Shown one piece after another: positions 1-15,468 of a stretch of DNA of 64,000 nucleotides. Under the pieces are notes generated by a model. The model saw only the letters and a list, made by a program, of their open reading frames with translations, did not search any database and was not told the origin of the DNA. This DNA is from a virus. The number at the start of each line of letters is the position of its first letter. Position 1 is the first letter of the stretch. A program made the translations under genes and the position numbers. Where the stretch lies: IMG/VR virus record IMGVR_UViG_3300045988_121434, positions 32,336 to 96,335 of that record; one strand, written 5' to 3'.

Positions 1-1
1 T

Positions 2-550
2 GGCTATGGCAAAGGCAACGGCTGTGGCAATGGCTATGGCGATGGCAGTGGCAATGGCAAAGGCGATGGCTGTGGCGGCGTGAAAGAAATCAATGGGCAC
101 GCGGTGTATGTGATTGACAACACGAGAACCATTATAACCTCCACCCATGGCAATGTAGCGCAAGGCTTCATCCTTGAACATAACACGAAATTGGTGCCGT
201 GCTATATTGCCAAGGATAATAATCACTTCGCTCACGGGAAAACATTGCGTGAAGCTTTCGCGTCCCTTCAAGAGAAGCTCTACGACGACAGCACCGAGGA
301 AGAAAGAATACGGGCGTTCAAACGAAAGTTCCCCTCTTACGACACGAAGTACAGCAATCAAGACCTGTTCGTTTACCATCATGTGCTCACGGGCAGTTGC
401 CGCATGGGCAGGGAGTCGTTCGCGAATAGCAGGGGCATCTCGCTTAGCGACAAGACCACCGTCCGAGAGTTCGTCCAGCTCACCAAGGACGCTTACGGTA
501 GCGATATAATCAAAAAGCTGCCAAAGGCTTATGGTCTATCTTGTCTATGA
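2..550 (+). CDS. Hypothetical phage protein, 5'-partial, with N-terminal (Gly-X)n repeat
   Basis: The frame is open from the window edge. nt 2-79 read GYGKGNGCGNGYGDGSGNGKGDGCGG in frame with the tracked ORF (GTG at 80), so the gene probably starts upstream of the window. Confidence 0.5.
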   Translation, partial: GYGKGNGCGNGYGDGSGNGKGDGCGGVKEINGHAVYVIDNTRTIITSTHGNVAQGFILEHNTKLVPCYIAKDNNHFAHGKTLREAFASLQEKLYDDSTEEERIRAFKRKFPSYDTKYSNQDLFVYHHVLTGSCRMGRESFANSRGISLSDKTTVREFVQLTKDAYGSDIIKKLPKAYGLSCL

Positions 551-598
551 TAGTCTATCACATCCATAAAGTCTATTTAGTTTATAACAAAAAAGAAA

Positions 599-835
599 AT
601 GGAAATATCCGACGACATACAGTTAGGCACGCGCATCACCTTGCAGGTCTCCGAGGGAGGCTGCGACGATTGCTTCTTCGCCAAGCTTGACTACGACCTC
701 CGCGTAGATTGCTGCTACCGCATAAAATGCCAGGCCACGCGTCGCAATGATAAAAAAAACGTGGCATTCAAATTGGTCGAGGGCAGTGCCACCGAGCCCA
801 ACATGCCCATTGAACATAAAAAAACAAAGCCATGA
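599..835 (+). CDS. Hypothetical small Cys-rich phage protein
   Basis: 78-codon ORF, tightly packed, with an ATGA stop/start overlap to the next ORF. No recognisable motif. Confidence 0.45.
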   Translation: MEISDDIQLGTRITLQVSEGGCDDCFFAKLDYDLRVDCCYRIKCQATRRNDKKNVAFKLVEGSATEPNMPIEHKKTKP

Positions 836-1071
836 ACAGTAAAAAGCACAATAATAGGGAACAGGCGATACAAGGGTTCTTGAGGGACTTATGGCATCCC
901 GCCAATGAGCAACCGAAACATTCCAAGTGGATTATGACACAGTTTCTCGACGATGACAATGATATTGCCTTTGAGATAGACATTGCCGGGCCTCTTATAG
1001 AGTGGAGGGAATATGTCAAGAAGTACAGAATCGTAAAGTGGCTATATGTCGATGACATCTTGCCACAGTAA
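832..1071 (+). CDS. Hypothetical phage protein
   Basis: 79-codon ORF, translationally coupled (ATGA) to the upstream ORF. Confidence 0.45.
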   Translation: MNSKKHNNREQAIQGFLRDLWHPANEQPKHSKWIMTQFLDDDNDIAFEIDIAGPLIEWREYVKKYRIVKWLYVDDILPQ

Positions 1072-1115
1072 GGAGATAAGAAGTTTAACGCCTTCGGGCA
1101 TAAATGTAAACAATT

Positions 1116-1775
1116 ATGGCATGGTTAGCGGTAGACAAGGACGGTACGGAAAAAGTTTTCGATGTACGGCCGTTTAGAGGCAACACGCAGGAAGACAAAG
1201 ACCACGTGTGGGGGTTGTATGCTGGGGAAGAATACGATAGGTGGTATCCTCAACATGACGAACGCGAGGATGACACAGGCTATGCTTATTACCGTGGCTA
1301 CTCGGTAGAGCTGCCCCACGGTACGATAGGCACGCTTATCGGGAAAAAGCTGTCATGGGCGGATGAACCCGTAGAACTTAAGGAAAAAGCCACAGGCAAC
1401 AACAAGGTACAATATCAAAAGTGGTTTTGGAGCGACCACATACTCATAACTGATAGCATCAACAACGCATCCGTGCAGGTAGCCGTGTTCAACCAGCAGG
1501 AGCTAAAAGACGAATATCACGCGGACGCCCTTATTTACGCCCTTTACGTTGACGAATCCTGCCGCAAGCGCGGCATCGGCAAGGGACTTCTCGAACAGGC
1601 CGAACGGCTCGCACATGACCATCACTGCCGCGTGGTGGCTCTCGAATGGGAAGAACAGGCAACCCCACGATGGACGCTCGAATGGTATCTTAGACAAGGC
1701 TATAAAGACACACGGTTAGGGACTGATTGCACCCTGCTTGTTAAAGACCTGCGGAAAGGAGGCAACGATGGATAG
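1116..1775 (+). CDS. GNAT-family N-acetyltransferase with unknown N-terminal domain
   Basis: The C-terminal half has the GNAT motif A (YVDESCRKRGIGKGLLEQAERLA). It is a clear paralogue of ORF 8142-8495 (HILITD..., ADAL-Y-LWV, W-L-WY-R-GY). Confidence 0.7.
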   Translation: MAWLAVDKDGTEKVFDVRPFRGNTQEDKDHVWGLYAGEEYDRWYPQHDEREDDTGYAYYRGYSVELPHGTIGTLIGKKLSWADEPVELKEKATGNNKVQYQKWFWSDHILITDSINNASVQVAVFNQQELKDEYHADALIYALYVDESCRKRGIGKGLLEQAERLAHDHHCRVVALEWEEQATPRWTLEWYLRQGYKDTRLGTDCTLLVKDLRKGGNDG

Positions 1776-2025
1776 TAACGCGTGTGATAATACCTTAGTT
1801 TTCGGTAGTTGCTACATAAGAAGCAGCATCGAAGTTCCCTCTCTGACCGCTGGAAGAGCCAAATGGAAAGCCTTTTACAGGAAGTTCCCTTGGCTCAAAG
1901 GTCAGCCTTTTTACCTCAGACGCTCATGTTACTGGGCAGGTGGCGAGAGGCATCTAAAGGCAATAAAGATTAAACTCAAAAAGATATAGTTATGGCAAAA
2001 CCTTACAGAATCAAACACAAGGCAA

Positions 2026-2235
2026 GTGGATATTGCGACGATGGACAAGATTAGCGAATTGTCATACCTCCACCTCATAGCACAGCTCGAAGAAGAAAAC
2101 AAGCTCTTGCGAGACGAGGCAAAACACCTACGCCTCACGATTAAGGATTACTTAAACAAAAAAACGCATGAAAATCAGACTGGCAAAGAAAATAATGAAC
2201 ACGAGGACAGACCGCCTTGCCCCCTATTGGTATGA
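2026..2235 (+). CDS. Hypothetical small coiled-coil protein
   Basis: 69-codon ORF with heptad-like charged sequence. Start codon uncertain. Confidence 0.3.
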   Translation: MDIATMDKISELSYLHLIAQLEEENKLLRDEAKHLRLTIKDYLNKKTHENQTGKENNEHEDRPPCPLLV

Positions 2236-2396
2236 CAGGTTGGTTGATACCTTGGTAACTCAAACAAGAATAGACCATCGAATCAAAAAGGCGGCAATGC
2301 TAATAAGCAAGTACAATTACAGAAAATTCAACAAGCAGTAAACTACCTACAGGCTAAAGACCTATGGGTTTTACGGCGCTCAATATAAATGATAAT

Positions 2397-2801
2397 ATGA
2401 GAACAATTAAATTTCGTGGCAAAGACATCTTTACTGATGCTTGGCGATATGGTGACTTGGTTCACAACCAGAAAGTAACAGCAACTGGCTTAGAGCCTCG
2501 TACAATGGTTGGTGGGTATGAGGTTGACCCAGAGACTGTTGGCAATAACACTGGACTGAAAGACAAGAACGGCAAGGAGATATATGACGGTGATATACTC
2601 GCCCACAATGGCAAGGTTATCGGTCATGTTGTTGACGGTGTGCGTGGTTACTGCTTCGATGTGGTGTATGCCAACCCTGTAAGCGAAAGCACATGGTCGT
2701 TATATGGAGTCGTTTTTTACGATTATAAAGGCGATGTAGAGATTGTAGGCTCCATCCACGATAAGGAATGGCAGGAGAAGTTGAATTTACCATCTGTATA
2801 G
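2397..2801 (+). CDS. YopX-family phage protein
   Basis: MRTIKFRGK...VDPETVGNNTGLKDKNGKEIYDGDIL matches the remembered YopX signature. I chose the ATG at 2397 inside tracked ORF 2364-2801. Confidence 0.7.
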   Translation: MRTIKFRGKDIFTDAWRYGDLVHNQKVTATGLEPRTMVGGYEVDPETVGNNTGLKDKNGKEIYDGDILAHNGKVIGHVVDGVRGYCFDVVYANPVSESTWSLYGVVFYDYKGDVEIVGSIHDKEWQEKLNLPSV

Positions 2802-2805
2802 TCCT

Positions 2806-3045
2806 ATGAAAGCAAGAATTAGAAACAAGGTTTTTCGCAATCGGTGGCGAATGAATTACACGCTTGGGCAGATATTCGAGGCTGCAAGAGGAACGACTCT
2901 TTGGATTTATCCGGGCAACGGATATATGTATCATTTGAACTACCACAACGGAAATGTATATAAAACCGCACAAGACGACTATGACCATGGTCGTTTTGTG
3001 ATGGTTAACCGTCGCCCTAAACGTAAGTCTAACCGTCGAACATAA
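2806..3045 (+). CDS. Hypothetical basic phage protein
   Basis: 79-codon ORF with a basic C-terminus, starting 5 nt after the upstream stop. Confidence 0.4.
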   Translation: MKARIRNKVFRNRWRMNYTLGQIFEAARGTTLWIYPGNGYMYHLNYHNGNVYKTAQDDYDHGRFVMVNRRPKRKSNRRT

Positions 3046-3138
3046 CAGTATTTATAGATATGAGAACAATTAAGTTTAAGGCTAAGACATTGAAGGATGG
3101 CGAATACTTTAAGACTGAAGAAGAAAAGGAGGCCGACA

Positions 3139-3600
3139 ATGATTAAAGCAGAAGACCTTAGAATAGGCGACATTGTGCAGACAAACAAAGACTGCATGTT
3201 TCCGAAAGACACATTGTGCATCGTTACCGAAATCCATCCCGACCGACAGTTTAATGACAAAAAGGGAGTCGTCAGTCTGAAGGCTGTCAACGACGAAGAC
3301 GACGGTCCCTGGGGGACATGGTGCTGCAACATCGATGGCGTGCCCATCACGCCCGAAATACTTCGCAATAATGACTTTAAGGAAGAAGTCGAAGGCAAAT
3401 ACTTCACAAGGCCAATCAAAGTCAGAGCAGGCAGTTCCCTTGCCAGATATTTGGCTGTAGAACGAAAAAAATACGCTTGGGCAATATTCATAAAGTATTA
3501 CAACGTGACAGGCTATGCACTCTTATGTCATGTAAAGTACGTTCACGAACTACGGCTCGCCCTTAAAATAGTAAAATTTAATCCGGAAATGAAAGTATAA
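3139..3600 (+). CDS. Hypothetical phage protein
   Basis: The ATG at 3139 (MIKAEDLRIGDIV...) lies inside tracked ORF 3097-3600. It overlaps the stop of a 28-codon YopX-like leader ORF (3060-3146) by ATGATTAA. Confidence 0.5.
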   Translation: MIKAEDLRIGDIVQTNKDCMFPKDTLCIVTEIHPDRQFNDKKGVVSLKAVNDEDDGPWGTWCCNIDGVPITPEILRNNDFKEEVEGKYFTRPIKVRAGSSLARYLAVERKKYAWAIFIKYYNVTGYALLCHVKYVHELRLALKIVKFNPEMKV

Positions 3601-3628
3601 TGTGGATGAATAAGTAAGTAACAAAACA

Positions 3629-3763
3629 ATGACTGACATTAAGATTTCGGTGCATCCGTTTGGCCATAAGCTCGAATGGCGAGGATGGGGGGGTAACTTC
3701 TCGCCTGCTCTACGAGCCACCGACTACAAATGCCCTCACTGTATAATGATTGAATATGACTAA
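3629..3763 (+). CDS. TRD-like mini-ORF M1 (C5-MTase target-recognition-domain-like)
   Basis: 44 codons: MTDIKISVHPFGHKLEWRGWGGNFSPALRATDYKCPHCIMIEYD*. The SPALRATDYK...IMIE segment resembles the PTLrA-DYK...lIE portion of C5-MTase TRDs. The G7 tract at 3687-3693 is in frame. The stop overlaps the next ATG (ATGACTAA). Confidence 0.55.
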   Translation: MTDIKISVHPFGHKLEWRGWGGNFSPALRATDYKCPHCIMIEYD

Positions 3764-3890
3764 GCAACACCCATTCGATGATTTTCATCAGCGCATTCAT
3801 TGGGACGGCAACTCCATCGGAACCGTTACCCAGCAATGGGGCAATCCTGCGCCGAGGCACGGATGGCGAATAATGACAGAATATGATTAA
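3756..3890 (+). CDS. TRD-like mini-ORF M2
   Basis: 44 codons: MTKQHPFDDFHQRIHWDGNSIGTVTQQWGNPAPRHGWRIMTEYD*. It has the same length and the same ...EYD* end as M1. The TRD resemblance is weaker (IGTVTQQWG). It has an 8-nt ATGATTAA overlap with M3. Confidence 0.4.
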   Translation: MTKQHPFDDFHQRIHWDGNSIGTVTQQWGNPAPRHGWRIMTEYD

Positions 3891-4212
3891 CCCTCACACG
3901 CCCCGCTACAAGCGCGGCACCATCACCAAGGACGGCAAGCTATACGGACGCTATCCCGACGGTTCGCTCTACCGCATCTACTCCACCTCTGACCGACCCT
4001 TCCTTCAGATTGTTGACCGCAAGGGCGAGACGTTCCTTCGCATACGCCAAGCCACCGAGCAGGGCTATACCGACTGCCCTTGCCCTGGTGCTGCCGACCT
4101 CAGCTATTCCTCCTCGGCTCTAAGGCGCAGCAGGACGGTTGGGGGGGGGGGTAAGCTGGTGAACGCTCTGACCGCAGCAAGCGGAGGGGCGTGCGTGTTT
4201 GTTGAATTATGA
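3883..4212 (+). CDS. TRD-like ORF M3
   Basis: 109 codons. ...IRQATEQGYTDCPCPGAADLSYSSSALRRSRTVGGGGKLVNALTAASGGACVFVEL* fits the remembered TRD pattern (GY...dl..p.S..RRGRVg....a.TLt). The G10 tract at 4141-4150 is in frame. Confidence 0.6.
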   Translation: MINPHTPRYKRGTITKDGKLYGRYPDGSLYRIYSTSDRPFLQIVDRKGETFLRIRQATEQGYTDCPCPGAADLSYSSSALRRSRTVGGGGKLVNALTAASGGACVFVEL

Positions 4213-4219
4213 CTTGAAT

Positions 4220-4396
4220 ATGCTTAGAGCAAAGGCAATATCAATAATGGTGAAAAAGGTGGAGCAGACCATGGTGTTTCAGAACATGCAAGCCAAAGGT
4301 CTGATAACGCCTCGCTCGCTTGATGGCGAATGTTTTACTCTTACGTCTGCAATGGGATTAGGGGGGGCAAACGCCTGTAATAGTAAAGGTATATGA
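4220..4396 (+). CDS. TRD-like mini-ORF M4 (non-canonical end as sequenced)
   Basis: ATG at 4220 (the track starts at TTG 4199). The sequence ...GECFTLTSAMGLGG is followed by the G7 tract at 4361-4367. As sequenced it ends NSKGI*. With G6 it would read GLGGQTPVIVKVYD* and end at TAA 4398-4400 with the canonical ATGACTAA overlap. Confidence 0.5.
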   Translation: MLRAKAISIMVKKVEQTMVFQNMQAKGLITPRSLDGECFTLTSAMGLGGANACNSKGI

Positions 4397-4524
4397 CTAA
4401 ATACGACCTCTACCAATATCCTCGTGGCTACAACGACGGAGGTAGATTAGGCACTGACGTTTGCCCGACCTTGACAATCAATTCGTGGCAGCAAAATGTA
4501 TTTCTGATTGAAGAATATGAATAA
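4393..4524 (+). CDS. TRD-like mini-ORF M5, in frame with the MTase core
   Basis: 43 codons: MTKYDLYQYPRGYNDGGRLGTDVCPTLTINSWQQNVFLIEEYE*. It has a CPTLT TRD core. It is in the same reading frame as ORF 4537-5865, separated only by TAA 4522-4524 plus 4 codons (SKDN). Confidence 0.6.
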   Translation: MTKYDLYQYPRGYNDGGRLGTDVCPTLTINSWQQNVFLIEEYE

Positions 4525-4536
4525 AGCAAAGACAAT

Positions 4537-5865
4537 ATGATCACAAAACTCAATTTCACCGACCGCACCATCAAGAGCTATGCTATCCGTAAGCTCACGC
4601 CAAAGGAGTGTTTCCGCTTGATGGGCGTTCGCGACAACGTAATCGGCACGATGCAGAGCAGCAATGCCCAAGCAGCCGAACGTTTGCCCGACTGGAAGGG
4701 CAAGGGCAAACCCGAAGACATGGCTATATCTGCCTCACAGCAGTACAAGCAAGCCGGAAACTCAATCGTGGTGGACGTGTTGGCCCACATCTACGAGCAA
4801 CTTTTCTATCCCGCACCGCCCAAGCCCCGCAAGCAGGAACAGCTCACGCTCTTCGCCGACCTTGATGACTCGCTGCCCGCCATGCCACCAACAGCCGGAG
4901 AACGTGGTAAGGAAAATCTTTTCCTCACCACGTTCTCCGGCTACGACTCGCAGCTCATGGCAGCCGACGTGCTATGCGAGTGGCATCCCGACTTCCGATG
5001 GACATGCGTAGGATGGAGCGACATCGACAAATACGCCTGTCAGATGCACAACCTCGTCTTCCCTCAGTTTGCCGACTGCGCCCTTGGCGACATCACCAAG
5101 ATTGACTGGCATGAGGTGAAACGCTCGCTCCATGGGCGCGAGGTTGACATCTTCACCTATTCCTCGCCTTGCCAGGACATCAGCCAAGCCGGAAAGCAAA
5201 TGGGACTGAAAGAGGGCAGCGACACACGAAGCGCCCTGCTTTGGCGAGTGGCAGATGCCGTGGAGGTGTTGCGCCCGAAATATCTCTTGCAGGAGAACGT
5301 GGCGGCACTGGTAAGCTCGAAGTTCATGCCCGACTTTCAGAAGTGGCTCGACAAACTCTCCTCGCTCGGCTATGTGAGCCGTTGGGCGCGACTCAACGCA
5401 AAGAACTATGGTGTGCCACAAAACCGCGATCGTGTGTTCTGCATTTCCATGCGCAAAGACGTAGCCTTCGACTATCAGTTTCCCGAACCCTTCGAGCTGC
5501 GCACCCGACTGGAGGACGTGTTGGAAAATGAGGTAGCCGACCGTTATTTCCTAAAAGACGATGCCGTGAGCAAGTTTCTCAAGGCTAACGACTCCGACAA
5601 CGCCCTATTCATGCAGTTCGACCTGCCACCGACACACGAGGCAGCGATGTTCCTCAAGACCGTGCTTCAGATATTCATGGAGCGTCACGACGGATGGGAC
5701 GAAGGCATTGAGTGGAACGAGAAGGAGCTGAGCTATCGTCGCCCAACCATCGCCCGTCTCTACGAAAAGTTCAAGGAGAACCCAAAGAAACTGGACGTGG
5801 AATATTGGCGCGGCTTTTACAAGATGTTTAAGGAGAATATGGAGAGGAATAAGGATGCGAACTGA
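4537..5865 (+). CDS. DNA (cytosine-5)-methyltransferase catalytic core, circularly permuted (IX-X-I-IV-VI-VIII), no internal TRD
   Basis: Motifs seen, in order: IRKLTPKECFRLMG (IX), QAGNSIVVDVL (X), Pro-rich linker, TTFSGYDSQ (I), SSPCQDIS (IV, PCQ), LLQENV (VI), GVPQNRDRVF (VIII). These are followed by a helical tail of about 135 aa. Confidence 0.85.
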   Translation: MITKLNFTDRTIKSYAIRKLTPKECFRLMGVRDNVIGTMQSSNAQAAERLPDWKGKGKPEDMAISASQQYKQAGNSIVVDVLAHIYEQLFYPAPPKPRKQEQLTLFADLDDSLPAMPPTAGERGKENLFLTTFSGYDSQLMAADVLCEWHPDFRWTCVGWSDIDKYACQMHNLVFPQFADCALGDITKIDWHEVKRSLHGREVDIFTYSSPCQDISQAGKQMGLKEGSDTRSALLWRVADAVEVLRPKYLLQENVAALVSSKFMPDFQKWLDKLSSLGYVSRWARLNAKNYGVPQNRDRVFCISMRKDVAFDYQFPEPFELRTRLEDVLENEVADRYFLKDDAVSKFLKANDSDNALFMQFDLPPTHEAAMFLKTVLQIFMERHDGWDEGIEWNEKELSYRRPTIARLYEKFKENPKKLDVEYWRGFYKMFKENMERNKDAN

Positions 5866-6046
5866 CAACCCACCCGACCGTGTAATCCATATCATAGCTG
5901 ATATGATTATGGGTGGCAGGTTGCTCACCTGCCCTGCCTCGATGTTCAGTGCAGAACGCTGCAACGGAGCCTTTCACGGCATAGCAATAACCATCATGTC
6001 GCGCACCGATTGCAGCGACGTGTTCTTTGTAGCAGTAGAATTATGA
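5855..6046 (+). CDS. TRD-like mini-ORF M6
   Basis: 63 codons. It overlaps the end of the core ORF by 11 nt. ...NGAFHGIAITIMSRTDCSDVFFVAVEL* has the same VEL* end as M3 and M13. The TRD resemblance is moderate. Confidence 0.45.
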   Translation: MRTDNPPDRVIHIIADMIMGGRLLTCPASMFSAERCNGAFHGIAITIMSRTDCSDVFFVAVEL

Positions 6047-6191
6047 AGAAAACCAACCCGTGTCACGCAATACAAAATGGGGGGGTACGATTGCGCCTGC
6101 AATTACTTCCCACTATTTTAAGGCTGGTGTGCGAGACTTCCTCTTTGCCCTTGCCATACCACATTGTTGTTTGATAGTAGAATATGAATAA
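6043..6191 (+). CDS. TRD-like mini-ORF M7, frameshifted at a G7 tract as sequenced
   Basis: The ATG at 6043 opens MKKTNPCHAIQNGG. After the G7 tract (6079-6085) the TRD-like sequence WGGTIAPAITSHYFKAGVRDFLFALAIPHCCLIVEYE* continues in another frame and ends at TAA 6189-6191. One extra G (G8) would fuse the two parts. As sequenced, the ATG frame stops at 6174. Confidence 0.5.
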
Positions 6192-6336
6192 CAACCCTCG
6201 CCCTATCATCCTCGGCTCTTACAGTCCCTCGCAGAACGGCATCATCGTGTCACCACACGGCATAGCCTTGTGCATAGCCGGGGGAGGTAAGGGTCACGAT
6301 GTGGATAAACCGAAAATACTGATAGAGTATGACTGA
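6184..6336 (+). CDS. TRD-like mini-ORF M8
   Basis: 50 codons: MNNNPRPIILGSYSPSQNGIIVSPHGIALCIAGGGKGHDVDKPKILIEYD*. It fits the pattern G-i-a-p-T/C-l-.-a-GGG...pKi-iE. It has 8-nt overlaps at both ends. Confidence 0.6.
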   Translation: MNNNPRPIILGSYSPSQNGIIVSPHGIALCIAGGGKGHDVDKPKILIEYD

Positions 6337-6508
6337 CAAGTATTACATTGGCTGGGTACGCAGCGGCAAGGACGGCAAGGGCCTCGTAAAGAGCAGACCG
6401 CGCAAGCAGATAGCCAATGCCGTGACGACAATGGTCGGAAGAGGTATTGCCGACCCTCGCGACGGACTCGGCAACACCACACCGCATATAGTATATGAAT
6501 TTGAGTAA
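6329..6508 (+). CDS. TRD-like mini-ORF M9
   Basis: 59 codons: ...RPRKQIANAVTTMVGRGIADPRDGLGNTTPHIVYEFE*. ANAVTT resembles the sNtLTT core. Confidence 0.5.
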   Translation: MTDKYYIGWVRSGKDGKGLVKSRPRKQIANAVTTMVGRGIADPRDGLGNTTPHIVYEFE

Positions 6509-6525
6509 CCCATAAAACAAAAAAA

Positions 6526-6906
6526 ATGGAAAAAGACAAAAACGTAGAGATAGGCCGTGCTCTCGCCAATTTTGATATGGCCTGTCGCAATTTGGTCAAC
6601 CTTGTCAACGACCAACTCTTCGAGACCTCCCGCTCACCCTACTGGGTAGCCGACGAGGTAGGAGGCATCTGCGACTTCGGCGATACCGACTTCCTCACGC
6701 CCGAAGAAATGGTGCTCATTCTCGAACACGGCGTCAGCTACGACGACTATGTAGAGTGGCGCGAAGCCAACATCAAGTATGGCGACACCAAAGGCTACAT
6801 CAAACTCAAGTCATGGCTCCGCGGATGCCGACACGACCGTGTGGAGGGTGCAAATACCAAGACAAACTGCATCGCCCCAGTCCGTGGCCGTGGAGTAATT
6901 CGATAA
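6526..6906 (+). CDS. Hypothetical protein embedded in the TRD array
   Basis: 126-codon ORF with normal composition and no MTase or TRD motif recognised. Confidence 0.5.
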   Translation: MEKDKNVEIGRALANFDMACRNLVNLVNDQLFETSRSPYWVADEVGGICDFGDTDFLTPEEMVLILEHGVSYDDYVEWREANIKYGDTKGYIKLKSWLRGCRHDRVEGANTKTNCIAPVRGRGVIR

Positions 6907-6931
6907 CAACAGTAACAAAAGACAACCTCCT

Positions 6932-7105
6932 ATGCTACACTTTCGCATAGCAGCCTTTCGAGGCCGTGACCCCGACAATCCGTCCGACCGCAAGCATCCC
7001 TCCTGCGGTCGTTTCCGTCAGCGCATGGAGATAAATGCGTTGGGTACGACCAACACGCTTACGTCAGTAGGCAAGGATAATATGGCATATATAGAGTATG
7101 AATAA
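6932..7105 (+). CDS. TRD-like mini-ORF M10
   Basis: 57 codons: MLHFRIAAFRGRDPDNPSDRKHPSCGRFRQRMEINALGTTNTLTSVGKDNMAYIEYE*. It closely follows a remembered Dcm-family TRD string (vAmRGRnPeNPsDR...eQrlE.n.dG.sNTLTSVqKDN). Confidence 0.65.
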   Translation: MLHFRIAAFRGRDPDNPSDRKHPSCGRFRQRMEINALGTTNTLTSVGKDNMAYIEYE

Positions 7106-7247
7106 TCAAACCCCATTCGTGCAACGCCTCTCTCGCCTCTGCCCACGTCGGGGGTACTCCACCGCCCTGTCCGCACGCTACGACGGATGGGCAGGGCTCT
7201 ACGACGAGCACGGACAGCACACCATTGTATTGATAGAGTATGAATAA
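7098..7247 (+). CDS. TRD-like mini-ORF M11
   Basis: 49 codons: MNNQTPFVQRLSRLCPRRGYSTALSARYDGWAGLYDEHGQHTIVLIEYE*. STALSARYDG resembles sPTLtARy.kg. Confidence 0.55.
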   Translation: MNNQTPFVQRLSRLCPRRGYSTALSARYDGWAGLYDEHGQHTIVLIEYE

Positions 7248-7380
7248 GTACATACAAAATTGTCCGTCAGGTATCTGTTGCGTTCTGACCTCTCATTACG
7301 CAAGAGAAGGATGGGCGAACATAGCAAGCAATACAACATCACAATGCAAAGCACCCACAATATTGATAGAGTATGAATAA
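7240..7380 (+). CDS. TRD-like mini-ORF M12
   Basis: 46 codons: MNKYIQNCPSGICCVLTSHYAREGWANIASNTTSQCKAPTILIEYE*. It has the 18-nt junction TTGATAGAGTATGAATAA, identical to that of M11. Confidence 0.55.
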   Translation: MNKYIQNCPSGICCVLTSHYAREGWANIASNTTSQCKAPTILIEYE

Positions 7381-7867
7381 AAATGTAACAAACCCCATAA
7401 AAACAACAGAGACAATGAAACCAGAAGAAAACAACCGTATGGAGGCACTTGCCTACATCATAGCCGACCTAAAGGCAGAGAACATAGAGCTGGTGCAGCG
7501 TGTGCATCAGCTTGTGGAGGATTACAACGACGTAGCACGTCAGTTGCGTGGAATGGAGAAGCGTAAGGACGAAGACCAGTCAAGGCAGACGCTCGGCGAA
7601 ATGATGCAGATGCGCGACCATTGCGACAAACTGGAGGTTGAAAACAACAATTTGAAGACGTGCTTGATAGCAGTCAGCTCGTTTCTGCGAGACAAAAATC
7701 TGTATATGGCTAATGGCACATTATGTTCTTATGGGTCTGGCAATCCAGAAGTATGTCCTGAGTACTGCAAAAAATGTAACTCCTACCTAAGTACTTTAAA
7801 GGATGTTGGTGTGGTTTGCAGCAGAAGACTTGCAGAAGCTTCCGTAATTTTTGCGAAGAGTAAATGA
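7373..7867 (+). CDS. Hypothetical coiled-coil protein with Cys-rich C-terminus, embedded in the TRD array
   Basis: 164-codon ORF joined to M12 by the same 8-nt overlap. It is heptad-rich in the middle and has CPEYCKKC near the C-terminus. Confidence 0.5.
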   Translation: MNKNVTNPIKTTETMKPEENNRMEALAYIIADLKAENIELVQRVHQLVEDYNDVARQLRGMEKRKDEDQSRQTLGEMMQMRDHCDKLEVENNNLKTCLIAVSSFLRDKNLYMANGTLCSYGSGNPEVCPEYCKKCNSYLSTLKDVGVVCSRRLAEASVIFAKSK

Positions 7868-8025
7868 CACCAACAAAAACCCTCGTAGTCGGCATGATGC
7901 AGACGCCACCCTATGACCGCATGTTTGAGCAGAGCCGCCGCGTGTACTCCGCTCAGGGAATATCGCCCACGCTGCATACACAAGGGGGGGGTGATAGAGA
8001 GATTAAGGTATTGGTGGAGCTGTAA
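7864..8025 (+). CDS. TRD-like mini-ORF M13
   Basis: 53 codons: MTPTKTLVVGMMQTPPYDRMFEQSRRVYSAQGISPTLHTQGGGDREIKVLVEL*. This is the textbook-looking TRD core (R-vY...G-iSPTL-t-GGG...k-l). The G8 tract at 7984-7991 is in frame. Confidence 0.65.
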   Translation: MTPTKTLVVGMMQTPPYDRMFEQSRRVYSAQGISPTLHTQGGGDREIKVLVEL

Positions 8026-8141
8026 GAATGTCCGCTCCATATCGCCGACAACACCTATCTTTGCACATATCACTGAACGAATGAGACTAACATCGTTTTC
8101 ATTTGTTTCGTCTGGTGACAAACAAAAACAACATTTCATCT

Positions 8142-8495
8142 ATGATACAACATCAGCATTGGGAAGACTCCACTCACATACTCATTACCGACGAGCAGCA
8201 TCATGGCAGCATACAGGTGTTCATCCCCAAGCGCACCGAAGACAAGCCCTTGGATGGCGAGGCTGACGCTCTCGTCTATTCGCTGTGGGTGGGCGAACGG
8301 CACCGTGGCCGTGGGGTGGCAAAACTCCTGATGGAGACAGCCGAAAGGGAACTGAAGCGCTGCGGCATAGCGACCGTCGCTATATCGTGGGATGGACGCG
8401 ACTCTCCCCAATGGGTGTTGCAATGGTATGAAAGGTTGGGCTACGAAGGAAAAGCGTTCGACTACCGCTGCTGCACGCTTCTTAAACGGTTGTAG
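8142..8495 (+). CDS. GNAT-family N-acetyltransferase (short paralogue)
   Basis: Motif A is WVGERHRGRGVAKLLMETAERELK. It aligns by eye with the C-terminal half of ORF 1116-1775. The ATG at 8142 lies inside tracked ORF 8103-8495. Confidence 0.7.
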   Translation: MIQHQHWEDSTHILITDEQHHGSIQVFIPKRTEDKPLDGEADALVYSLWVGERHRGRGVAKLLMETAERELKRCGIATVAISWDGRDSPQWVLQWYERLGYEGKAFDYRCCTLLKRL

Positions 8496-8663
8496 CCAAA
8501 CAAAAAAACTCATTCCGAAGGCCAAAGGACCGTACTCAGTGTGTCGCATGTCGCCACTCCGTCCAACGTATTTAACGGGCTCTGGTGCAGACGAGCGAGG
8601 AGAAGGAAAACTCAACCACTGCACATTTCTTTTTATTAACGGATTTATAGAGAATAACGAACA

Positions 8664-9839
8664 ATGAGCGACTTAAAGATTTTTGCAAAGACCATTGAAC
8701 CTGAAGCCCAGGAGCAAGTAAGGCAGATGGCAGAGAGCGAGGCTTACCGCGACTGTAAGATTCGCATTATGCCCGATTGCCATGCCGGAAAGGAATGCAC
8801 CGTAGGCACCGTGATTGAGACCCGCGGCAAAGTGGTGCCCAACACCGTGGGCGTTGACATCGGTTGCGGTATGCTCGTGTGGGATTTAGGCTTTGCCAAC
8901 ATTGATATGGAGATTCTCGACCGTATCATCAACGACAACATTCCAAGCGGATTCAATGTGCATGAGAAGCGTTTGTCGTCAGAGATGGTTTCCCTTATGC
9001 ACAATGAAATATGGTGTTTTTTGCCTCCGTGGAAGCAATATTTTGACCTCGACTATGTACTGCGTTCGCTCGGCACCCTTGGCGGTGGCAGCCACTTTAT
9101 TGAGGTTGACGTGGACGACGAAGGACGCAAGTATCTTGTAGTACATTCGGGTAGCCGCAATTTAGGCGTAAAGATATGCCGACATTTTCAGCAGTTGGCA
9201 TCAAGACAATGCAACAACAGTGAGGAACGTGGACGTATCATTTCCGAACTGAAAGCTCAGGGCAGACAGAGCGAGATAAACGATGCGCTGCGCCGGTTGA
9301 AACCCGTTTCTAAAGACATGGCCTACATTAGCGGTACCACGCTTGGCGATTACTATGATGCCATGCGCTTGTGTCAGCATTATGCCGACTTGAACCGTTT
9401 TCTTATGGCGCAAACCATAATCAAAGGTCTTGAACTAAAGTCTACAGGTCGTGTGTTCACCACCATGCACAACTACATCGACACCTTCGGCATTATCCGC
9501 AAGGGAGCTGTGAGCGCAAAGAAGGGCGAGCCTCTGATTATCCCTCTGAACATGCGCGACGGTTCGCTGCTGTGTACTGGCAAGGGCAACAACGACTGGC
9601 TTCAGTCGGCTCCCCACGGCGCAGGCAGACTAATGTCGCGCTCGGCTGCCAAGAAGCAGCTCAGCATGGACGAATACCGCCAACAGATGCACGACATCTA
9701 CTCTACATCGGTATGCGAGGCCACAATCGACGAAGCTCCAATGGCGTATAAGTCGGCAGAGGAAATAGAAGCGTTGATAGGCGACACCGTGAACATCGTG
9801 AAGCGCATTAAGCCGATATATAACTTTAAGGCGAAGTAA
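8664..9839 (+). CDS. rtcB: RtcB-type RNA 3'-phosphate/5'-OH ligase
   Basis: Characteristic RtcB strings are present: MPDCHAGKE, GVDIGCGM, GGGSHFIEVD, HSGSRNLG, TMHNYI, IPLNMRDG, APHGAGR. Confidence 0.9.
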   Translation: MSDLKIFAKTIEPEAQEQVRQMAESEAYRDCKIRIMPDCHAGKECTVGTVIETRGKVVPNTVGVDIGCGMLVWDLGFANIDMEILDRIINDNIPSGFNVHEKRLSSEMVSLMHNEIWCFLPPWKQYFDLDYVLRSLGTLGGGSHFIEVDVDDEGRKYLVVHSGSRNLGVKICRHFQQLASRQCNNSEERGRIISELKAQGRQSEINDALRRLKPVSKDMAYISGTTLGDYYDAMRLCQHYADLNRFLMAQTIIKGLELKSTGRVFTTMHNYIDTFGIIRKGAVSAKKGEPLIIPLNMRDGSLLCTGKGNNDWLQSAPHGAGRLMSRSAAKKQLSMDEYRQQMHDIYSTSVCEATIDEAPMAYKSAEEIEALIGDTVNIVKRIKPIYNFKAK

Positions 9840-9878
9840 TAACAAATAATATTATTAACAATTAAAACAAAAACAATT

Positions 9879-10274
9879 ATGACATCAATTATTTCAGCGT
9901 TAATCATCATTCTGCTTATCCTGCTGTTTACAATCTTTGCAGCATGGATTGACAAGTTCGGTGCAAAGCATAAGGAGGAGTTTATCGACGAGACCATTGA
10001 GAAGGTCATCGACAAGGTTTCGACAGTTGCTACATCCAAGATAGCAATGGTGTTGGAGAAGTATATGACCGGTCCTTGGTATCTTGTGGTCTATACTGCA
10101 GCAGAGGGCCAGCCTATCTGGATCTCGAACAATAATATCCGTTCGGTGCACCCCGATGCTGAGAAACGCCGACTCGTTGTGAAGCAATTTAATGGCGAGG
10201 ACATGGTGATTGAAGACGTGGAGAGTTATGACCTCCAGGCTGCAAACGAAATGGCAGACTTCGATTTTATGTAA
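9879..10274 (+). CDS. Hypothetical membrane-anchored protein (PWYLVVY family, copy 1)
   Basis: It has an N-terminal TM helix (IISALIIILLILLFTIFAAWI) and shares GPWYLVVY and a C-terminal acidic motif with the next ORF. Confidence 0.55.
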   Translation: MTSIISALIIILLILLFTIFAAWIDKFGAKHKEEFIDETIEKVIDKVSTVATSKIAMVLEKYMTGPWYLVVYTAAEGQPIWISNNNIRSVHPDAEKRRLVVKQFNGEDMVIEDVESYDLQAANEMADFDFM

Positions 10275-10332
10275 CGATACGCTCCAACTATAGACTTATG
10301 GAACATTCAACTATTGGATTGACTTTTTTATT

Positions 10333-10716
10333 TTGGCCGTGGCGCTTTTTGCTATCACGCACCTCTATTGCGTGTGCAGAGTTTTCAGAAACAAGCGATC
10401 ACCGCTTCATCAGCAGCAGTTTGCTTCGCCCACGCCGCCTGCACCATGGAACACAAGAGCCGAGCAAGACCTAACGGGGAATAATGACCCGTGGTATCTT
10501 GTTGTGTATGCCGATGTGAACGAAAGAAACTACACAGTTGTTGCAGCAGAGGATATTCTGGATTTTCAGTTCAGCGGCAAAAGAGGAGAAATGAGAATCC
10601 ACTGCAAGAAATACAACGGTTTCCCCGACAACACTATGAACTTTGAAAACATACACCATTATGAGTTTCAGCAGGCTTCGCAGCTTGGAGATTTTTGTTT
10701 AGAAGGAAAGGAATGA
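10333..10716 (+). CDS. Hypothetical membrane-anchored protein (PWYLVVY family, copy 2)
   Basis: It carries DPWYLVVYAD and a TM-like N-terminus. There is no in-frame ATG (TTG 10333 or GTG 10339). The ATG at 10298 is in another frame, upstream of a T-run. Confidence 0.45.
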   Translation: MAVALFAITHLYCVCRVFRNKRSPLHQQQFASPTPPAPWNTRAEQDLTGNNDPWYLVVYADVNERNYTVVAAEDILDFQFSGKRGEMRIHCKKYNGFPDNTMNFENIHHYEFQQASQLGDFCLEGKE

Positions 10717-10926
10717 ATGATGAAACGAGATACAGCGAAACTTCTTCAAAAAGCCAACGAGGTGCTCACGGTGCTTCAGAAAGATGGAGCGATGCGCCCA
10801 GCAGACTATGCCGTGGTGCTCGGACTGGTGGCAAACAAAATCACGGAGGCTTGCGTCAGCTATGGTGAAGATAGGCAAATGGTGGTGGATGACCTTTGCA
10901 TGGTCGTGAGGAAAATGTGTAAGTGA
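10717..10926 (+). CDS. Hypothetical small protein
   Basis: 69-codon ORF that starts immediately after the upstream stop. Confidence 0.4.
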   Translation: MMKRDTAKLLQKANEVLTVLQKDGAMRPADYAVVLGLVANKITEACVSYGEDRQMVVDDLCMVVRKMCK

Positions 10927-11035
10927 GAACGATTTTAGGATGAATACAATATAGTATGGATTTAAGTTTAATAAGTAAGAGGGATAGCCGTTGCGATAAC
11001 GCCTATCCCTCGTTTTTCTTTTCATTGTTCGTTGT

Positions 11036-15048: not shown

Positions 15049-15468
15049 TTACATTTTGAATTGTTTTTTCAAGAAAGTGTTGCTTTTAATAAGCTCTATC
15101 ATTTCCTCCTCGGAGTGTATTCCTTCCCAAAATACTTCAGTATGCGACCCACGCCTTTCATCATCTACGGAGAACGGCACGGCATAGTTGGTATATACAA
15201 CACCGTGATGTTTTATCAAGTGACGACCTGGATTCTTGTAGATGTTATTGATCCACGTCTCGTTGTCACATTCAGTCCATATTTTACATTCTTTGTGGGT
15301 AAGATTTTTGTCGATACCCATAGGATAGTGACCTGCCTTGCCGTTACTTTTGTTCCGAAATAAATGATCTTTGCCATATCGTGATTGTTTTATAATTCGC
15401 CAAAGTCCAGTTTCATCTGTTGGAATTTCTCGGCATACCATTGTTTGTATGATTTGCCCGAAATCCAC
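15049..15468 (-). CDS. Hypothetical protein (start uncertain)
   Basis: 139-codon ORF with protein-like composition. The first ATG would overlap the upstream gene by 79 nt, so the true start may be internal. Confidence 0.45.
   Translation of the reverse strand: MDFGQIIQTMVCREIPTDETGLWRIIKQSRYGKDHLFRNKSNGKAGHYPMGIDKNLTHKECKIWTECDNETWINNIYKNPGRHLIKHHGVVYTNYAVPFSVDDERRGSHTEVFWEGIHSEEEMIELIKSNTFLKKQFKM

What the first reader, a model, noticed from the sequence alone, without database searches (positions are those of the whole stretch)
4393..5865. Circularly permuted C5-MTase core whose termini sit at the TRD slot, with one TAA separating it from an upstream TRD module
ORF 4537-5865 starts with the post-TRD segment, YAIRKLTPKECFRLMGVRD (motif IX), and QQYKQAGNSIVVDVLAHIYEQL (motif X). 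A Pro-rich linker follows (YPAPPKPRKQEQLTLF...). After that come motif I (TTFSGYDSQ), motif IV (SSPCQDIS), motif VI (LLQENV) and motif VIII (GVPQNRDRVF). The protein ends in a helical tail of about 135 aa with no TL-type TRD. The new N- and C-termini therefore fall exactly at the two borders of the position where a TRD normally sits. Permutation has a precedent in M.BssHII, and trans-assembly has one in the two-subunit M.AquI (both from memory). In addition, M5 is in the same frame as the core: ...NVFLIEEYE-TAA(4522-4524)-SKDN-MITKLNFTD.... A single stop therefore separates a TRD from motif IX in the natural TRD-IX-X order. A 7-codon ORF (4517-4540, MNKAKTI*) bridges the two through overlapping start/stop signals. 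Read-through or reinitiation could set the ratio of TRD-fused to TRD-less core.
Basis: partly seen in the sequence, partly recalled or inferred. Interest (0 to 1): 0.75.

Follow-up and report, generated by a model that had tools for sequence, protein, structure and literature searches.

The report
Phage methylase with detachable recognition modules
A gut phage encodes a rearranged cytosine DNA methyltransferase that has no DNA-recognition domain of its own, surrounded by about 13 tiny separate genes that each encode one recognition domain, which suggests a mix-and-match enzyme that shields phage DNA from many host restriction systems.

Summary
ORF 4537-5865 is an intact C5-MTase with motif order IX-X-linker-I-VIII and no TRD. 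ORF 4393-4524 is a TRD, in frame and separated by one TAA.

The larger picture was missed. The core sits in a chain of about 13 overlapping minigenes (3629-8025, + strand), each encoding one TRD. These TRDs are homologous to the tandem TRDs of canonical-order multispecific relatives.

- The minigenes are under purifying selection (dN/dS 0.06-0.28).
- They are joined by stop-start overlaps (ATGAnTAA).
- They recur as variable cassette sets in all 80 related phage contigs examined.
- Free TRD genes were found only beside permuted cores.

Read-through fusion is not supported. The TRD-to-core frame is in register in about 18 loci and out of register in at least 43. TRD5 is often not next to the core, and no close homologue is fused. 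Distant relatives do encode TRD-core fusions directly.

Best explanation: an "exploded" multispecific methylase in which free TRD subunits dock in trans onto a TRD-less permuted core. This is inferred, not shown.

Poly-G tracts inside TRD genes vary by non-multiples of three between phages. Two window cassettes are frameshifted there, which hints at phase variation.

The parts
3629..3763 (+). TRD minigene 1 (44 aa, family 6; ...SPALRATDYKCPHCIMIEYD). Contains a G7 tract at 3687.
   Evidence: Homologous to TRD segments of canonical MTases P0153 and P0147 (iE 6e-11). Junction GAATATGACTAA.
3756..3890 (+). TRD minigene 2 (family 10; ...IGTVTQQWGNPAPRHGWRIMTEYD). The first ATG is at 3750; the embedded coupled ATG is at 3756.
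   Evidence: P0169, iE 1e-7.
3883..4212 (+). TRD minigene 3 (109 aa, family 3; ...LVNALTAASGGACVFVEL). Contains a G11 tract at 4141.
   Evidence: P0179 residues 480-534, iE 8e-11. Present in 46 loci.
4199..4396 (+). TRD cassette 4 (...ECFTLTSAMGLGG...), frameshifted at its G7 tract (4361). Intact orthologues read ...GLGGGQTPVIVKVYD* and join the TRD5 ATG through the canonical junction GTATATGACTAA.
4393..4524 (+).
   Evidence: Orthologues in 60 loci. A homologous TRD lies inside the Dulem virus 40 methylase. Database homologues are all stand-alone, 42-57 aa.
4517..4540 (+). 7-codon relay ORF (MNKAKTI*). It starts at the ATG embedded in the TRD5 tail and stops at a TGA that overlaps the core ATG.
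   Evidence: It is not conserved: it is lost where the Tyr codon is TAC.
4537..5865 (+). Circularly permuted, TRD-less C5-MTase core (442 aa). Segments: motif IX 4585-4635; motif X 4738-4791; linker 4804-4920, which keeps the ancestral C-terminus QLTLF; motif I 4921-4953; motif IV (PCQ) 5161-5184; motif VI 5284-5301; motif VIII 5410-5439; helical tail 5590-5862.
5855..6046 (+). TRD minigene 6 (63 aa, family 1; ...FHGIAITIMSRTDCSDVFFVAVEL). It overlaps the core stop by 11 nt. This family lies immediately downstream of the core in most loci.
   Evidence: The fused TRD of P0177 and P0246 belongs to this family.
6043..6191 (+). TRD cassette 7 (family 4; ...TIAPAITSHYFKAGVRDFLFALAIPHCCLIVEYE). The ATGA-coupled ATG at 6043 is out of frame with the TRD because of the G7 tract at 6079. 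Only GTG 6060 is in frame.
   Evidence: Orthologous tracts are 5, 7, 7, 8, 9 and 9 nt long.
6184..6336 (+). TRD minigene 8 (50 aa, family 0; ...GIALCIAGGGKGHDVDKPKILIEYD).
   Evidence: Present in 62 loci. dN/dS 0.07.
6329..6508 (+). TRD minigene 9 (59 aa, family 8; ...IANAVTTMVGRGIADPRDGLGNTTPHIVYEFE).
   Evidence: P0152, iE 9e-6.
6932..7105 (+). TRD minigene 10 (57 aa, family 5; ...GTTNTLTSVGKDNMAYIEYE).
   Evidence: P0193, iE 3e-11.
7098..7247 (+). TRD minigene 11 (49 aa, family 2; ...YSTALSARYDGWAGLYDEHGQHTIVLIEYE).
   Evidence: dN/dS 0.11.
7240..7380 (+). TRD minigene 12 (46 aa, family 4; ...ICCVLTSHYAREGWANIASNTTSQCKAPTILIEYE).
7864..8025 (+). TRD minigene 13 (53 aa, family 7; ...RRVYSAQGISPTLHTQGGGDREIKVLVEL). 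Contains a G8 tract at 7984.
   Evidence: P0267, iE 3e-8.

Best explanation
The region encodes an 'exploded' multispecific cytosine-5 DNA methyltransferase.

The parts. One gene (4537-5865) makes a catalytically complete but TRD-less core. Its chain has been circularly permuted (IX-X-linker-I-VIII-tail), so both termini flank the empty TRD slot. About 13 flanking minigenes (43-109 aa) each make one free TRD. These TRDs are of the same families that sit in tandem between motifs VIII and IX in single-chain multispecific relatives.

Expression. The minigenes and the core form one chain of stop-start overlaps (mostly ATGAnTAA or ATGA). This points to co-translation by termination-reinitiation.

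Proposed mechanism (inferred). Each TRD peptide docks non-covalently into the open slot of a core molecule. Docking probably uses the TRD's terminal hydrophobic strand (hhhE) against the invariant core N-terminus (MITKLNFTDRTIKSY), and possibly the core-specific helical tail. The assembled enzyme would then have that TRD's sequence specificity. A pool of cores and TRDs would methylate many different sites and protect phage DNA from many host restriction systems.

What is shown and what is not. Shown: the gene architecture, TRD homology, purifying selection, coupling signals, cassette turnover, and exclusive association with permuted cores. Inferred: physical trans-assembly and methylation activity.
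For: 1. The core is an intact permuted C5-MTase without a TRD.
2. 336 of 497 mini-ORFs from 81 loci hit the VIII-IX variable region of canonical-order relatives of 318-777 aa (most above 400 aa) that carry several TRDs, such as P0258, P0194, P0229, P0266 and P0179. Window minigenes score iE 1e-11 to 1e-3.
3. dN/dS is 0.06-0.28 in 13 of 14 families; family 9, with only three sequence pairs, gives 0.59.
4. 317 junctions carry an ATG 8 nt before the end of the upstream stop. In 94% of them a stop in the downstream frame lies 1-3 codons before that ATG, and 91% open an ORF of at least 30 aa. The Tyr codon is TAT in all 317; TAC is seen only at junctions that lack the ATG.
5. All 80 related viral loci carry such arrays on the core's strand. 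There are 72 different cassette orders among 81 loci.
6. Free TRD genes occur next to permuted cores (window, L001-L080, L081, L082, L089). They do not occur next to canonical multi-TRD genes (L087, L088).
7. The family tolerates being cut. The core is split by an HNH gene in L081, and the Dulem virus 40 enzyme is split I-VIII | TRDs-IX-X.
8. The roughly 90-aa tail occurs only in TRD-less cores (P0121, P0126, P0142). It is absent from fused and canonical relatives.
9. [quoted passage not shown]
Against: - There is no experimental or structural evidence that a 43-60 aa TRD binds the core.
- The AF2 model of the TRD5-core fusion gave pLDDT below 45 for the TRD and 40-60 for the tail, so it neither supports nor refutes docking.
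- No C5-MTase with a TRD-only subunit is known to me or was found in the literature searches, so affinity and stoichiometry are open questions.
- Some relatives keep one TRD fused in cis alongside free TRDs (L082, L089). This raises the question of how free TRDs would compete.
- Two window cassettes are frameshifted.
Confidence: 0.6

Rival explanations
1. Read-through of TAA 4522-4524, or reinitiation through the 7-codon ORF, produces a TRD5-core fusion of about 56 kDa alongside the TRD-less core. The ratio of the two is regulated.
For: TRD5 is in frame with the core in the window and in L010, L013 and L046. Distant relatives encode TRD-core fusions directly and keep the core's Met-Ile as an internal residue pair.
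Against: The frame is in register in about 18 loci and out of register in at least 43, as expected by chance. About 16 loci have no upstream TRD. TRD5 is frequently not adjacent to the core. No fused close homologue exists. This model could serve only 1 of 13 TRDs. The relay ORF is not conserved.
Confidence: 0.05
2. The core is a self-sufficient methylase whose helical C-terminal tail is a new kind of TRD (IX-X-I-VIII-TRD, 'Type J'). The mini-proteins do something else, for example modulate or inhibit the core or host enzymes.
For: The tail is conserved and occurs only in TRD-less cores. PMC5944983 notes that the H or J assignment of natural permutants is ambiguous.
Against: The tail is all-helical and has no similarity to any TRD family. 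The mini-proteins are bona fide TRD homologues under purifying selection. TRDs have no known function without a catalytic domain.
Confidence: 0.12
3. The minigenes are a silent cassette library. Recombination at the conserved junctions moves one cassette next to the core, or fuses it to the core, and only that copy is used.
For: There are 72 cassette orders in 81 loci. The junction sequence of 12 nt or more is shared. The relative order of TRD4 and TRD5 is reversed in L001 compared with the window.
Against: Every cassette has its own start and stop. The embedded ATG co-varies with the presence of a downstream ORF. All repeats are direct. No recombinase is a conserved neighbour. The cassette next to the core is usually out of frame.
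Confidence: 0.07
4. Programmed frameshifting or hopping joins the minigenes into one polyprotein that resembles the canonical multi-TRD enzymes.
For: Canonical relatives carry the same TRDs in one chain. Most junctions place the next ORF in the +1 frame.
Against: In 94% of junctions the downstream frame is closed by a stop 1-3 codons before the ATG. No slippery sequence is present. Junction types are mixed (8-nt, 4-nt and 14-nt overlaps, and gaps). Unrelated genes (6526-6906, 7373-7867) interrupt the array.
Confidence: 0.03
5. The array is the decaying wreck of a multispecific methylase, and the minigenes are pseudogene fragments.
For: Two window cassettes are frameshifted, and many orthologues are out of frame at G tracts.
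Against: dN/dS is 0.06-0.28 in 13 of 14 families. Precise stop-start junctions are conserved in at least 80 phages. The core motifs are intact.
Confidence: 0.05

Closest known systems
Multispecific C5-MTases of temperate Bacillus phages (M.SPRI, M.Phi3TI, M.Rho11sI, M.H2I; Trautner et al. 1996, cited; details from memory)
   Same: Phage-borne orphan C5-MTases with several short TRDs, each thought to confer one specificity on a shared catalytic core. Metagenomic relatives with 4-8 tandem TRDs of the same families exist (P0258, P0194, P0179).
   Different: There the TRDs are covalently in tandem between motifs VIII and IX of one canonical-order chain. Here each TRD is its own gene, and the core is permuted and TRD-less.
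Natural circularly permuted C5-MTases (M.BssHII, M.Alw26I, M2.Eco31I, M.Esp3I, M2.BsaI; PMC5944983)
   Same: Motifs IX-X precede I-VIII, and the permutation point lies in the variable region. The relatives P0177, P0246, P0143 and P0132 have this TRD-IX-X-I-VIII topology.
   Different: Those enzymes keep their TRD in cis and belong to restriction-modification systems. The window core has no TRD and carries an extra helical tail.
Two-subunit C5-MTases: M.AquI (alpha I-VIII, beta TRD-IX-X) and M.EcoHK31I (from memory)
   Same: An active enzyme is assembled from separately translated fragments cut in the variable region. Dulem virus 40 and L081 are split in comparable ways.
   Different: Those are one fixed pair of fragments. 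Here a single core would choose among about 13 alternative TRD-only subunits, and the TRD is detached from motif IX as well.
Type I restriction-modification HsdS specificity subunits
   Same: Functional logic only: a separate, exchangeable specificity polypeptide, translationally coupled to the methylase gene.
   Different: Unrelated folds and chemistry (amino-MTases). HsdS carries two TRDs plus coiled-coil spacers and forms a stable M2S complex.
Hypermutable poly-G tracts of Campylobacter phages and bacterial phasevarions (from memory; PMC7383803 appeared among the results)
   Same: Homopolymeric G tracts within coding sequence whose length differs by non-multiples of three between isolates.
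   Different: The known cases switch receptor-binding proteins or whole mod genes. Here individual TRD subunits would be switched. Switching itself is not demonstrated.

Membership tests
C5 cytosine DNA methyltransferase (PF00145 / TIGR00675) | Profile match above the curated cut-off, with catalytic motifs I (FxGxG-like), IV (PCQ), VI (ENV), VIII (QxRxR), IX and X. | tested here: met
   PF00145 at 175.7 bits against a cut-off of 22. TIGR00675 at 164.7 bits against 100.65. All motifs were read in the translation. The top Foldseek hit is M.HhaI at E 1.6e-14.
Circularly permuted C5-MTases (M.BssHII class) | Motifs IX-X lie N-terminal to motifs I-VIII in one polypeptide. | tested here: met
   query 17-34 and 65-86 align to HhaI 271-315, and query 157-331 aligns to HhaI 35-198.
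Circularly permuted C5-MTases (M.BssHII class) | A TRD is retained in cis (Type H: TRD-IX-X-I-VIII). | tested here: not met
   No TRD profile hits the core or its 121 close homologues. The N-terminus begins 16 aa before motif IX. The feature is met by the distant relatives P0177, P0246, P0143 and P0132.
Multispecific phage C5-MTases (SPR / phi3T type) | Several distinct TRDs serve one catalytic core. | tested here: inconclusive
   13 TRD genes from about 11 families lie around one core. Whether they actually serve the core is inferred.
Multispecific phage C5-MTases (SPR / phi3T type) | The TRDs are in tandem within a single polypeptide between motifs VIII and IX. | tested here: not met
   Each TRD is bounded by its own start and stop, in different frames.
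Multispecific phage C5-MTases (SPR / phi3T type) | Each TRD confers a distinct methylation specificity. | not testable with these tools
   This needs a methylome or a restriction-protection assay.
Two-subunit C5-MTase (M.AquI type) | The alpha subunit carries motifs I-VIII and the beta subunit carries TRD-IX-X. | tested here: not met
   In the window, IX-X and I-VIII lie in one chain and the TRDs stand alone. The feature is met by Dulem virus 40.
Programmed stop-codon read-through gene pair | A conserved in-frame arrangement of the upstream and downstream ORFs across homologues. | tested here: not met
   About 18 loci are in frame and at least 43 are out of frame.
Phase-variable (simple-sequence-repeat) contingency locus | A homopolymeric tract in the coding sequence whose length varies by non-multiples of three between related genomes. 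| tested here: met
   13 of 14 orthologous G-tract clusters vary. Examples: 14 in frame and 17 out, 15 in and 12 out, 26 in and 9 out. The tract in the core gene is invariant in 11 of 11 loci.
Phase-variable (simple-sequence-repeat) contingency locus | Length heterogeneity within one population, with reversible switching. | not testable with these tools
   This needs read-level data. Most loci come from one IMG data set, so sequencing error is not excluded.

The most novel reading that the evidence does not exclude
A C5-MTase that works like a Type I system. One TRD-less, circularly permuted catalytic core draws on a library of about 13 stand-alone, translationally coupled TRD 'specificity subunits'. 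Several of these are individually switched on and off by slippage of poly-G tracts. Each phage lineage, or even each burst, would then carry a different combinatorial 5mC methylome. That would balance protection against classical restriction with exposure to methylation-dependent restriction.
Probability: 0.3. Interest if true: 0.9.

Novelty: new variant of a known kind. Interest (0 to 1): 0.8.

Why it matters
If free TRD peptides of 43-60 aa can programme a common C5-MTase core, several things follow.

- **A new architecture.** This would be the first TRD-only specificity subunit for a cytosine-5 methylase.
- **How TRDs work.** It would show that the TRD is an autonomous, portable recognition module. 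That bears on the long-standing question of how tandem TRDs in multispecific enzymes take turns at one active site.
- **Engineering.** It would offer a natural scaffold for targeted DNA methylation: a split, permuted core plus swappable recognition peptides.
- **Gut phage biology.** The system sits in a very abundant clade of phages of about 50-110 kb. The core has thousands of close homologues, some labelled Prevotella. It would therefore be a major, so far unannotated anti-restriction strategy in the human gut, since the minigenes are called 'hypothetical' or not called at all.
- **Annotation practice.** Sub-60-aa ORFs that pipelines ignore can be the specificity-determining half of an enzyme.
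- **Phase variation.** The poly-G polymorphism, if real, would add phase-variable epigenetic bet-hedging in a phage.

Tried and rejected
- Megablast of 3500-8100 against GenBank phages found no match.
- A concatenated-TRD tblastn against the same collection gave only five weak hits inside annotated MTase genes. The architecture is therefore absent from the GenBank phage records searched (INPHARED collection).
- A profile of TRD family 7 against PDB gave no meaningful hit. TRD homology was shown instead with a local phmmer run against 270 fetched relatives.
- Single-sequence AF2 of the core was useless (pLDDT 34).
- AF2 of the TRD5-X-core fusion with a 25-row alignment folded the catalytic domain well. 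It left the TRD and the tail at low confidence, so no docking inference was drawn.
- The colinear 'permuted' tblastn hits in Bacillus phage Deep Blue and the Streptococcus Javan phages are adjacent MTase-annotated genes, not permuted proteins. The three tandem MTase genes in Deep Blue do suggest how the permutation arose.
- +1 frameshifting, hopping, introns and inteins as joining mechanisms were rejected. The downstream frames are closed and there is no Rfam hit in 1-12000.
- The sigma-70 promoter and terminator scan was no better than shuffled sequence.
- A functional link to the neighbouring RtcB ligase and GNAT genes was considered, as a possible peptide or RNA ligation route. It was rejected because these genes are present in only 23-36 of 80 loci and at variable positions.
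- Three literature searches found no description of free-standing C5-MTase TRD genes.
Full report
**1. The observation**

ORF 4537-5865 (+, 442 aa) is a C5 cytosine methyltransferase. It matches PF00145 (E 2.1e-51, two stretches) and TIGR00675 (E 4e-48).

phmmer against PDB sequences shows the permutation residue by residue.
- Residues 17-34 and 65-86 align to M.HhaI 271-288 and 294-315 (motifs IX and X).
- Residues 157-331 align to M.HhaI 35-198.
- M.MpeI behaves the same way.

The catalytic motifs I, IV (PCQ), VI (ENV) and VIII (QNRDR) are intact.

An AF2 model built with 25 aligned sequences folds the catalytic domain at pLDDT 85-95. Its best structural match is M.HhaI (Foldseek E 1.6e-14).

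The linker between motifs X and I contains QLTLF. Canonical-order relatives end in ...QLSLF. The permuted protein therefore looks like the C-terminus of one methylase copy fused to the N-terminus of the next. Tandem methylase genes that could give rise to this exist in known phages (Deep Blue).

The TAA at 4522-4524, the in-frame SKDN spacer and the 7-codon ORF at 4517-4540 are all as described.

**2.

The core is embedded in a chain of small + strand ORFs from 3629 to 8025. Most end in a hydrophobic strand plus IEY(E/D) or VEL, and almost all have a T(L/V/I)T-type TRD motif.

The DNA junction GArTAyGAnTAA makes the stop overlap the next ATG by 8 nt. It occurs nine times, all on the + strand between 3752 and 7369, and nowhere else in the 64 kb.

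I count 13 such cassettes: five upstream of the core and eight downstream. Two unrelated genes (6526-6906 and 7373-7867) are interspersed among them.

**3. The mini-ORFs are TRDs**

The core has thousands of close homologues on contigs of roughly 50-110 kb. These are labelled Caudoviricetes, Bacteriophage sp. or Prevotella sp.. The window also encodes a tape-measure protein, a terminase and a head protease.

I fetched 80 related viral loci. All carry arrays of the junction motif on the core's strand.

The 497 tail-defined mini-ORFs fall into about 17 recurrent families.

In a local phmmer search against 270 relatives, 336 of them hit the segment between motifs VIII and IX of canonical-order proteins of 318-777 aa (most above 400 aa). 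These proteins contain several such segments in tandem. P0258, for example, has motif VIII at residue 160 and motif IX at residue 583. Window cassettes score iE 1e-11 to 1e-3.

The mini-proteins are therefore individual TRDs of a multispecific-type methylase. None of them hits the TRD-less core or its close homologues.

**4. They are real, translated genes**

dN/dS is 0.06-0.28 in 13 of the 14 families tested; family 9, with only three pairs, gave 0.59.

317 junctions have the embedded ATG.
- In 94% of them, a stop in the downstream frame lies only 1-3 codons before that ATG. This leaves no room for a frameshift fusion.
- 91% open an ORF of at least 30 aa.
- The Tyr codon is TAT in all 317 cases. 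TAC occurs only at junctions without the embedded ATG.

All three stop codons are used.

These are classic termination-reinitiation couplings. The terminal Y-E/D or L residues are largely dictated by the overlap. The conserved TRD feature itself is hhhE, which also ends each TRD inside the single-chain relatives (for example LLAEP, LVAES, MLVEP).

**5. The read-through idea**

Among loci with a TRD directly upstream of the core, about 18 are in frame and at least 43 are out of frame. About 16 loci have no TRD there at all.

TRD5 orthologues exist in 60 loci and are often separated from the core. In L001, for example, TRD5 lies at 5552-5683 with two more ORFs before the core.

All 10 database homologues of TRD5 are stand-alone proteins of 42-57 aa. 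The 120 closest core homologues are 438-458 aa. The relay ORF disappears when the Tyr codon is TAC.

Read-through is therefore not a conserved feature. In the window, the 7-codon ORF merely keeps the stop-start chain unbroken from TRD5 into the core.

**6. Architectural spectrum of the family**

A full-library search and sequence inspection show five architectures.
- **(i) Canonical single-chain multi-TRD enzymes.**
- **(ii) A two-gene split, I-VIII | TRDs-IX-X.** This is Dulem virus 40, which includes a TRD5 homologue.
- **(iii) Permuted enzymes with one or two TRDs fused at the N-terminus** (P0177, P0246, P0143, P0132). This is the known Type H topology of M.BssHII and relatives (PMC5944983). 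They retain the core's Met-Ile as an internal residue pair.
- **(iv) The TRD-less permuted core plus free TRD genes** (this window and L001-L080).
- **(v) The same core split by an HNH homing-endonuclease gene in the linker** (L081).

Free TRD genes accompany types iii-v (L082, L089, L081). They do not accompany the canonical enzymes (L087, L088).

The helical C-terminal tail of about 90 aa is found only in TRD-less cores.

**7. Mechanism**

The most economical reading is that free TRD subunits dock in trans into the slot left open by the permutation. Each would give the common core one specificity. Together they would give the phage broad protection against restriction.

Precedent for fragment complementation across the variable region exists (M.AquI and engineered split M.MpeI and M.SssI). 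A TRD-only subunit would be new.

Docking itself is inferred. AF2 gave low confidence for the TRD and the tail. Candidate docking elements are the invariant core N-terminus MITKLNFTDRTIKSY, the TRD hhhE strand and the tail.

The rival models are scored in the rival explanations section.

**8. Cassette dynamics**

There are 72 different cassette orders in 81 loci, with a loosely conserved relative order. This indicates frequent gain, loss and exchange of TRD genes.

All five G-runs of 7 nt or longer in the 64-kb window lie inside TRD genes, where they encode the Gly-rich loop after the TL motif.

Two window cassettes are frameshifted at G7 tracts relative to intact orthologues.
- TRD4 (4199-4396). 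Its orthologues read ...GLGGGQTPVIVKVYD* and join TRD5 through the canonical junction.
- TRD7 (6043-6191).

Across the loci, 13 of 14 orthologous G-tract clusters differ in length by non-multiples of three. The only invariant one lies in the core gene.

This looks like phase variation of individual TRDs. Most of these loci come from a single IMG data set, however, so homopolymer sequencing error cannot be excluded without reads.

**9. Context**

The phage is under heavy restriction pressure.
- CTAG is absent from 64 kb, against about 83-90 sites expected.
- GATC, GGCC and CCGG occur at 0.26-0.51 of expectation.
- Several 6-bp palindromes are absent.
- GCGC and CGCG are near expectation.

This pattern is compatible with some C-containing sites being covered by methylation, but that link is speculative.

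**10. Novelty**

Circular permutation, split C5-MTases and multispecific phage C5-MTases are each known. I found no description of the combination seen here: a TRD-less permuted core plus a variable library of translationally coupled TRD-only genes.

In public records the minigenes are either 'hypothetical protein' or not called at all.

I rate it a new variant of a known kind, of high interest to specialists. The central mechanistic claim is directly testable by co-expression and methylome sequencing.

Noticed in passing
window 3687, 4141, 4361, 6079, 7984; orthologous tracts in L001-L081: All five G-runs of 7 nt or longer in the 64-kb window lie inside TRD minigenes. TRD4 and TRD7 are frameshifted at G7 tracts. 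Across related loci, 13 of 14 orthologous G tracts vary in length by non-multiples of three, while a G7 tract in the core gene is invariant (11 of 11). This may be phase variation of individual TRDs. Sequencing error is not excluded, because most loci come from IMG data set 3300045988.
   Followed up: partly
whole window 1-64000: The tetranucleotide CTAG is completely absent from 64 kb, against about 83-90 sites expected. GATC, GGCC and CCGG occur at 0.26-0.51 of expectation. Several 6-bp palindromes (ATGCAT, CAATTG, CATATG) are absent, whereas GCGC and CGCG are near expectation. This is strong restriction-site avoidance alongside the methylase system.
   Followed up: partly
L070-L080, downstream of the core (for example L073, about 7437-7531): Mini-ORF family 12 (MNKVIIDKGSIPPSEEEEDD..PPLVLIEYD, 33 aa) has the TRD-type tail and junction, but an acidic stretch in place of a TL-type TRD. 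Its dN/dS is 0.16. It could be a 'blank' plug or competitor for the core, or a small DNA-mimic-like peptide.
   Followed up: no
L081 216-773; P0142 and P0153: Mobile elements target this methylase family. An HNH/NUMOD4 homing-endonuclease gene splits the permuted core in the linker between motifs X and I (L081). Intein-like insertions sit immediately before the catalytic Cys of motif IV (P0142, P0153).
   Followed up: partly
window 7373-7867 and 6526-6906: Two non-TRD genes are interspersed in the array and joined by the same stop-start overlaps. One is a 164-aa protein with a coiled-coil region and a Cys-rich C-terminus; it is found in 47 related loci, sometimes with a second divergent paralogue. 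The other is a 126-aa protein found in full length in about 5 of the related loci (15 loci if short C-terminal matches are counted). Neither has a Pfam or PHROG match.
   Followed up: partly
window 8664-9839, 8103-8495, 1116-1775: An RtcB-type RNA ligase gene and two GNAT acetyltransferase genes flank the array. They are present in only 23-36 of 80 related loci and at variable positions, so they are probably unrelated to the methylase system. RtcB more likely repairs tRNA.
   Followed up: yes
P0177, P0246, P0143 (alignment A2, columns 60-75): TRD-fused relatives keep Met-Ile exactly where the window core starts (..QTMIAQIN.., ..NRMIAQIN..). This suggests that the fusions arose from a minigene-plus-core arrangement, or that internal initiation also yields a TRD-less core in those phages.
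   Followed up: no
window 15390-16547 (- strand): A gene for a PAPS-reductase-like protein (phrog_424, E 4e-35) lies elsewhere in the window. Proteins of this type are often linked to DNA modification modules in phages.
   Followed up: no
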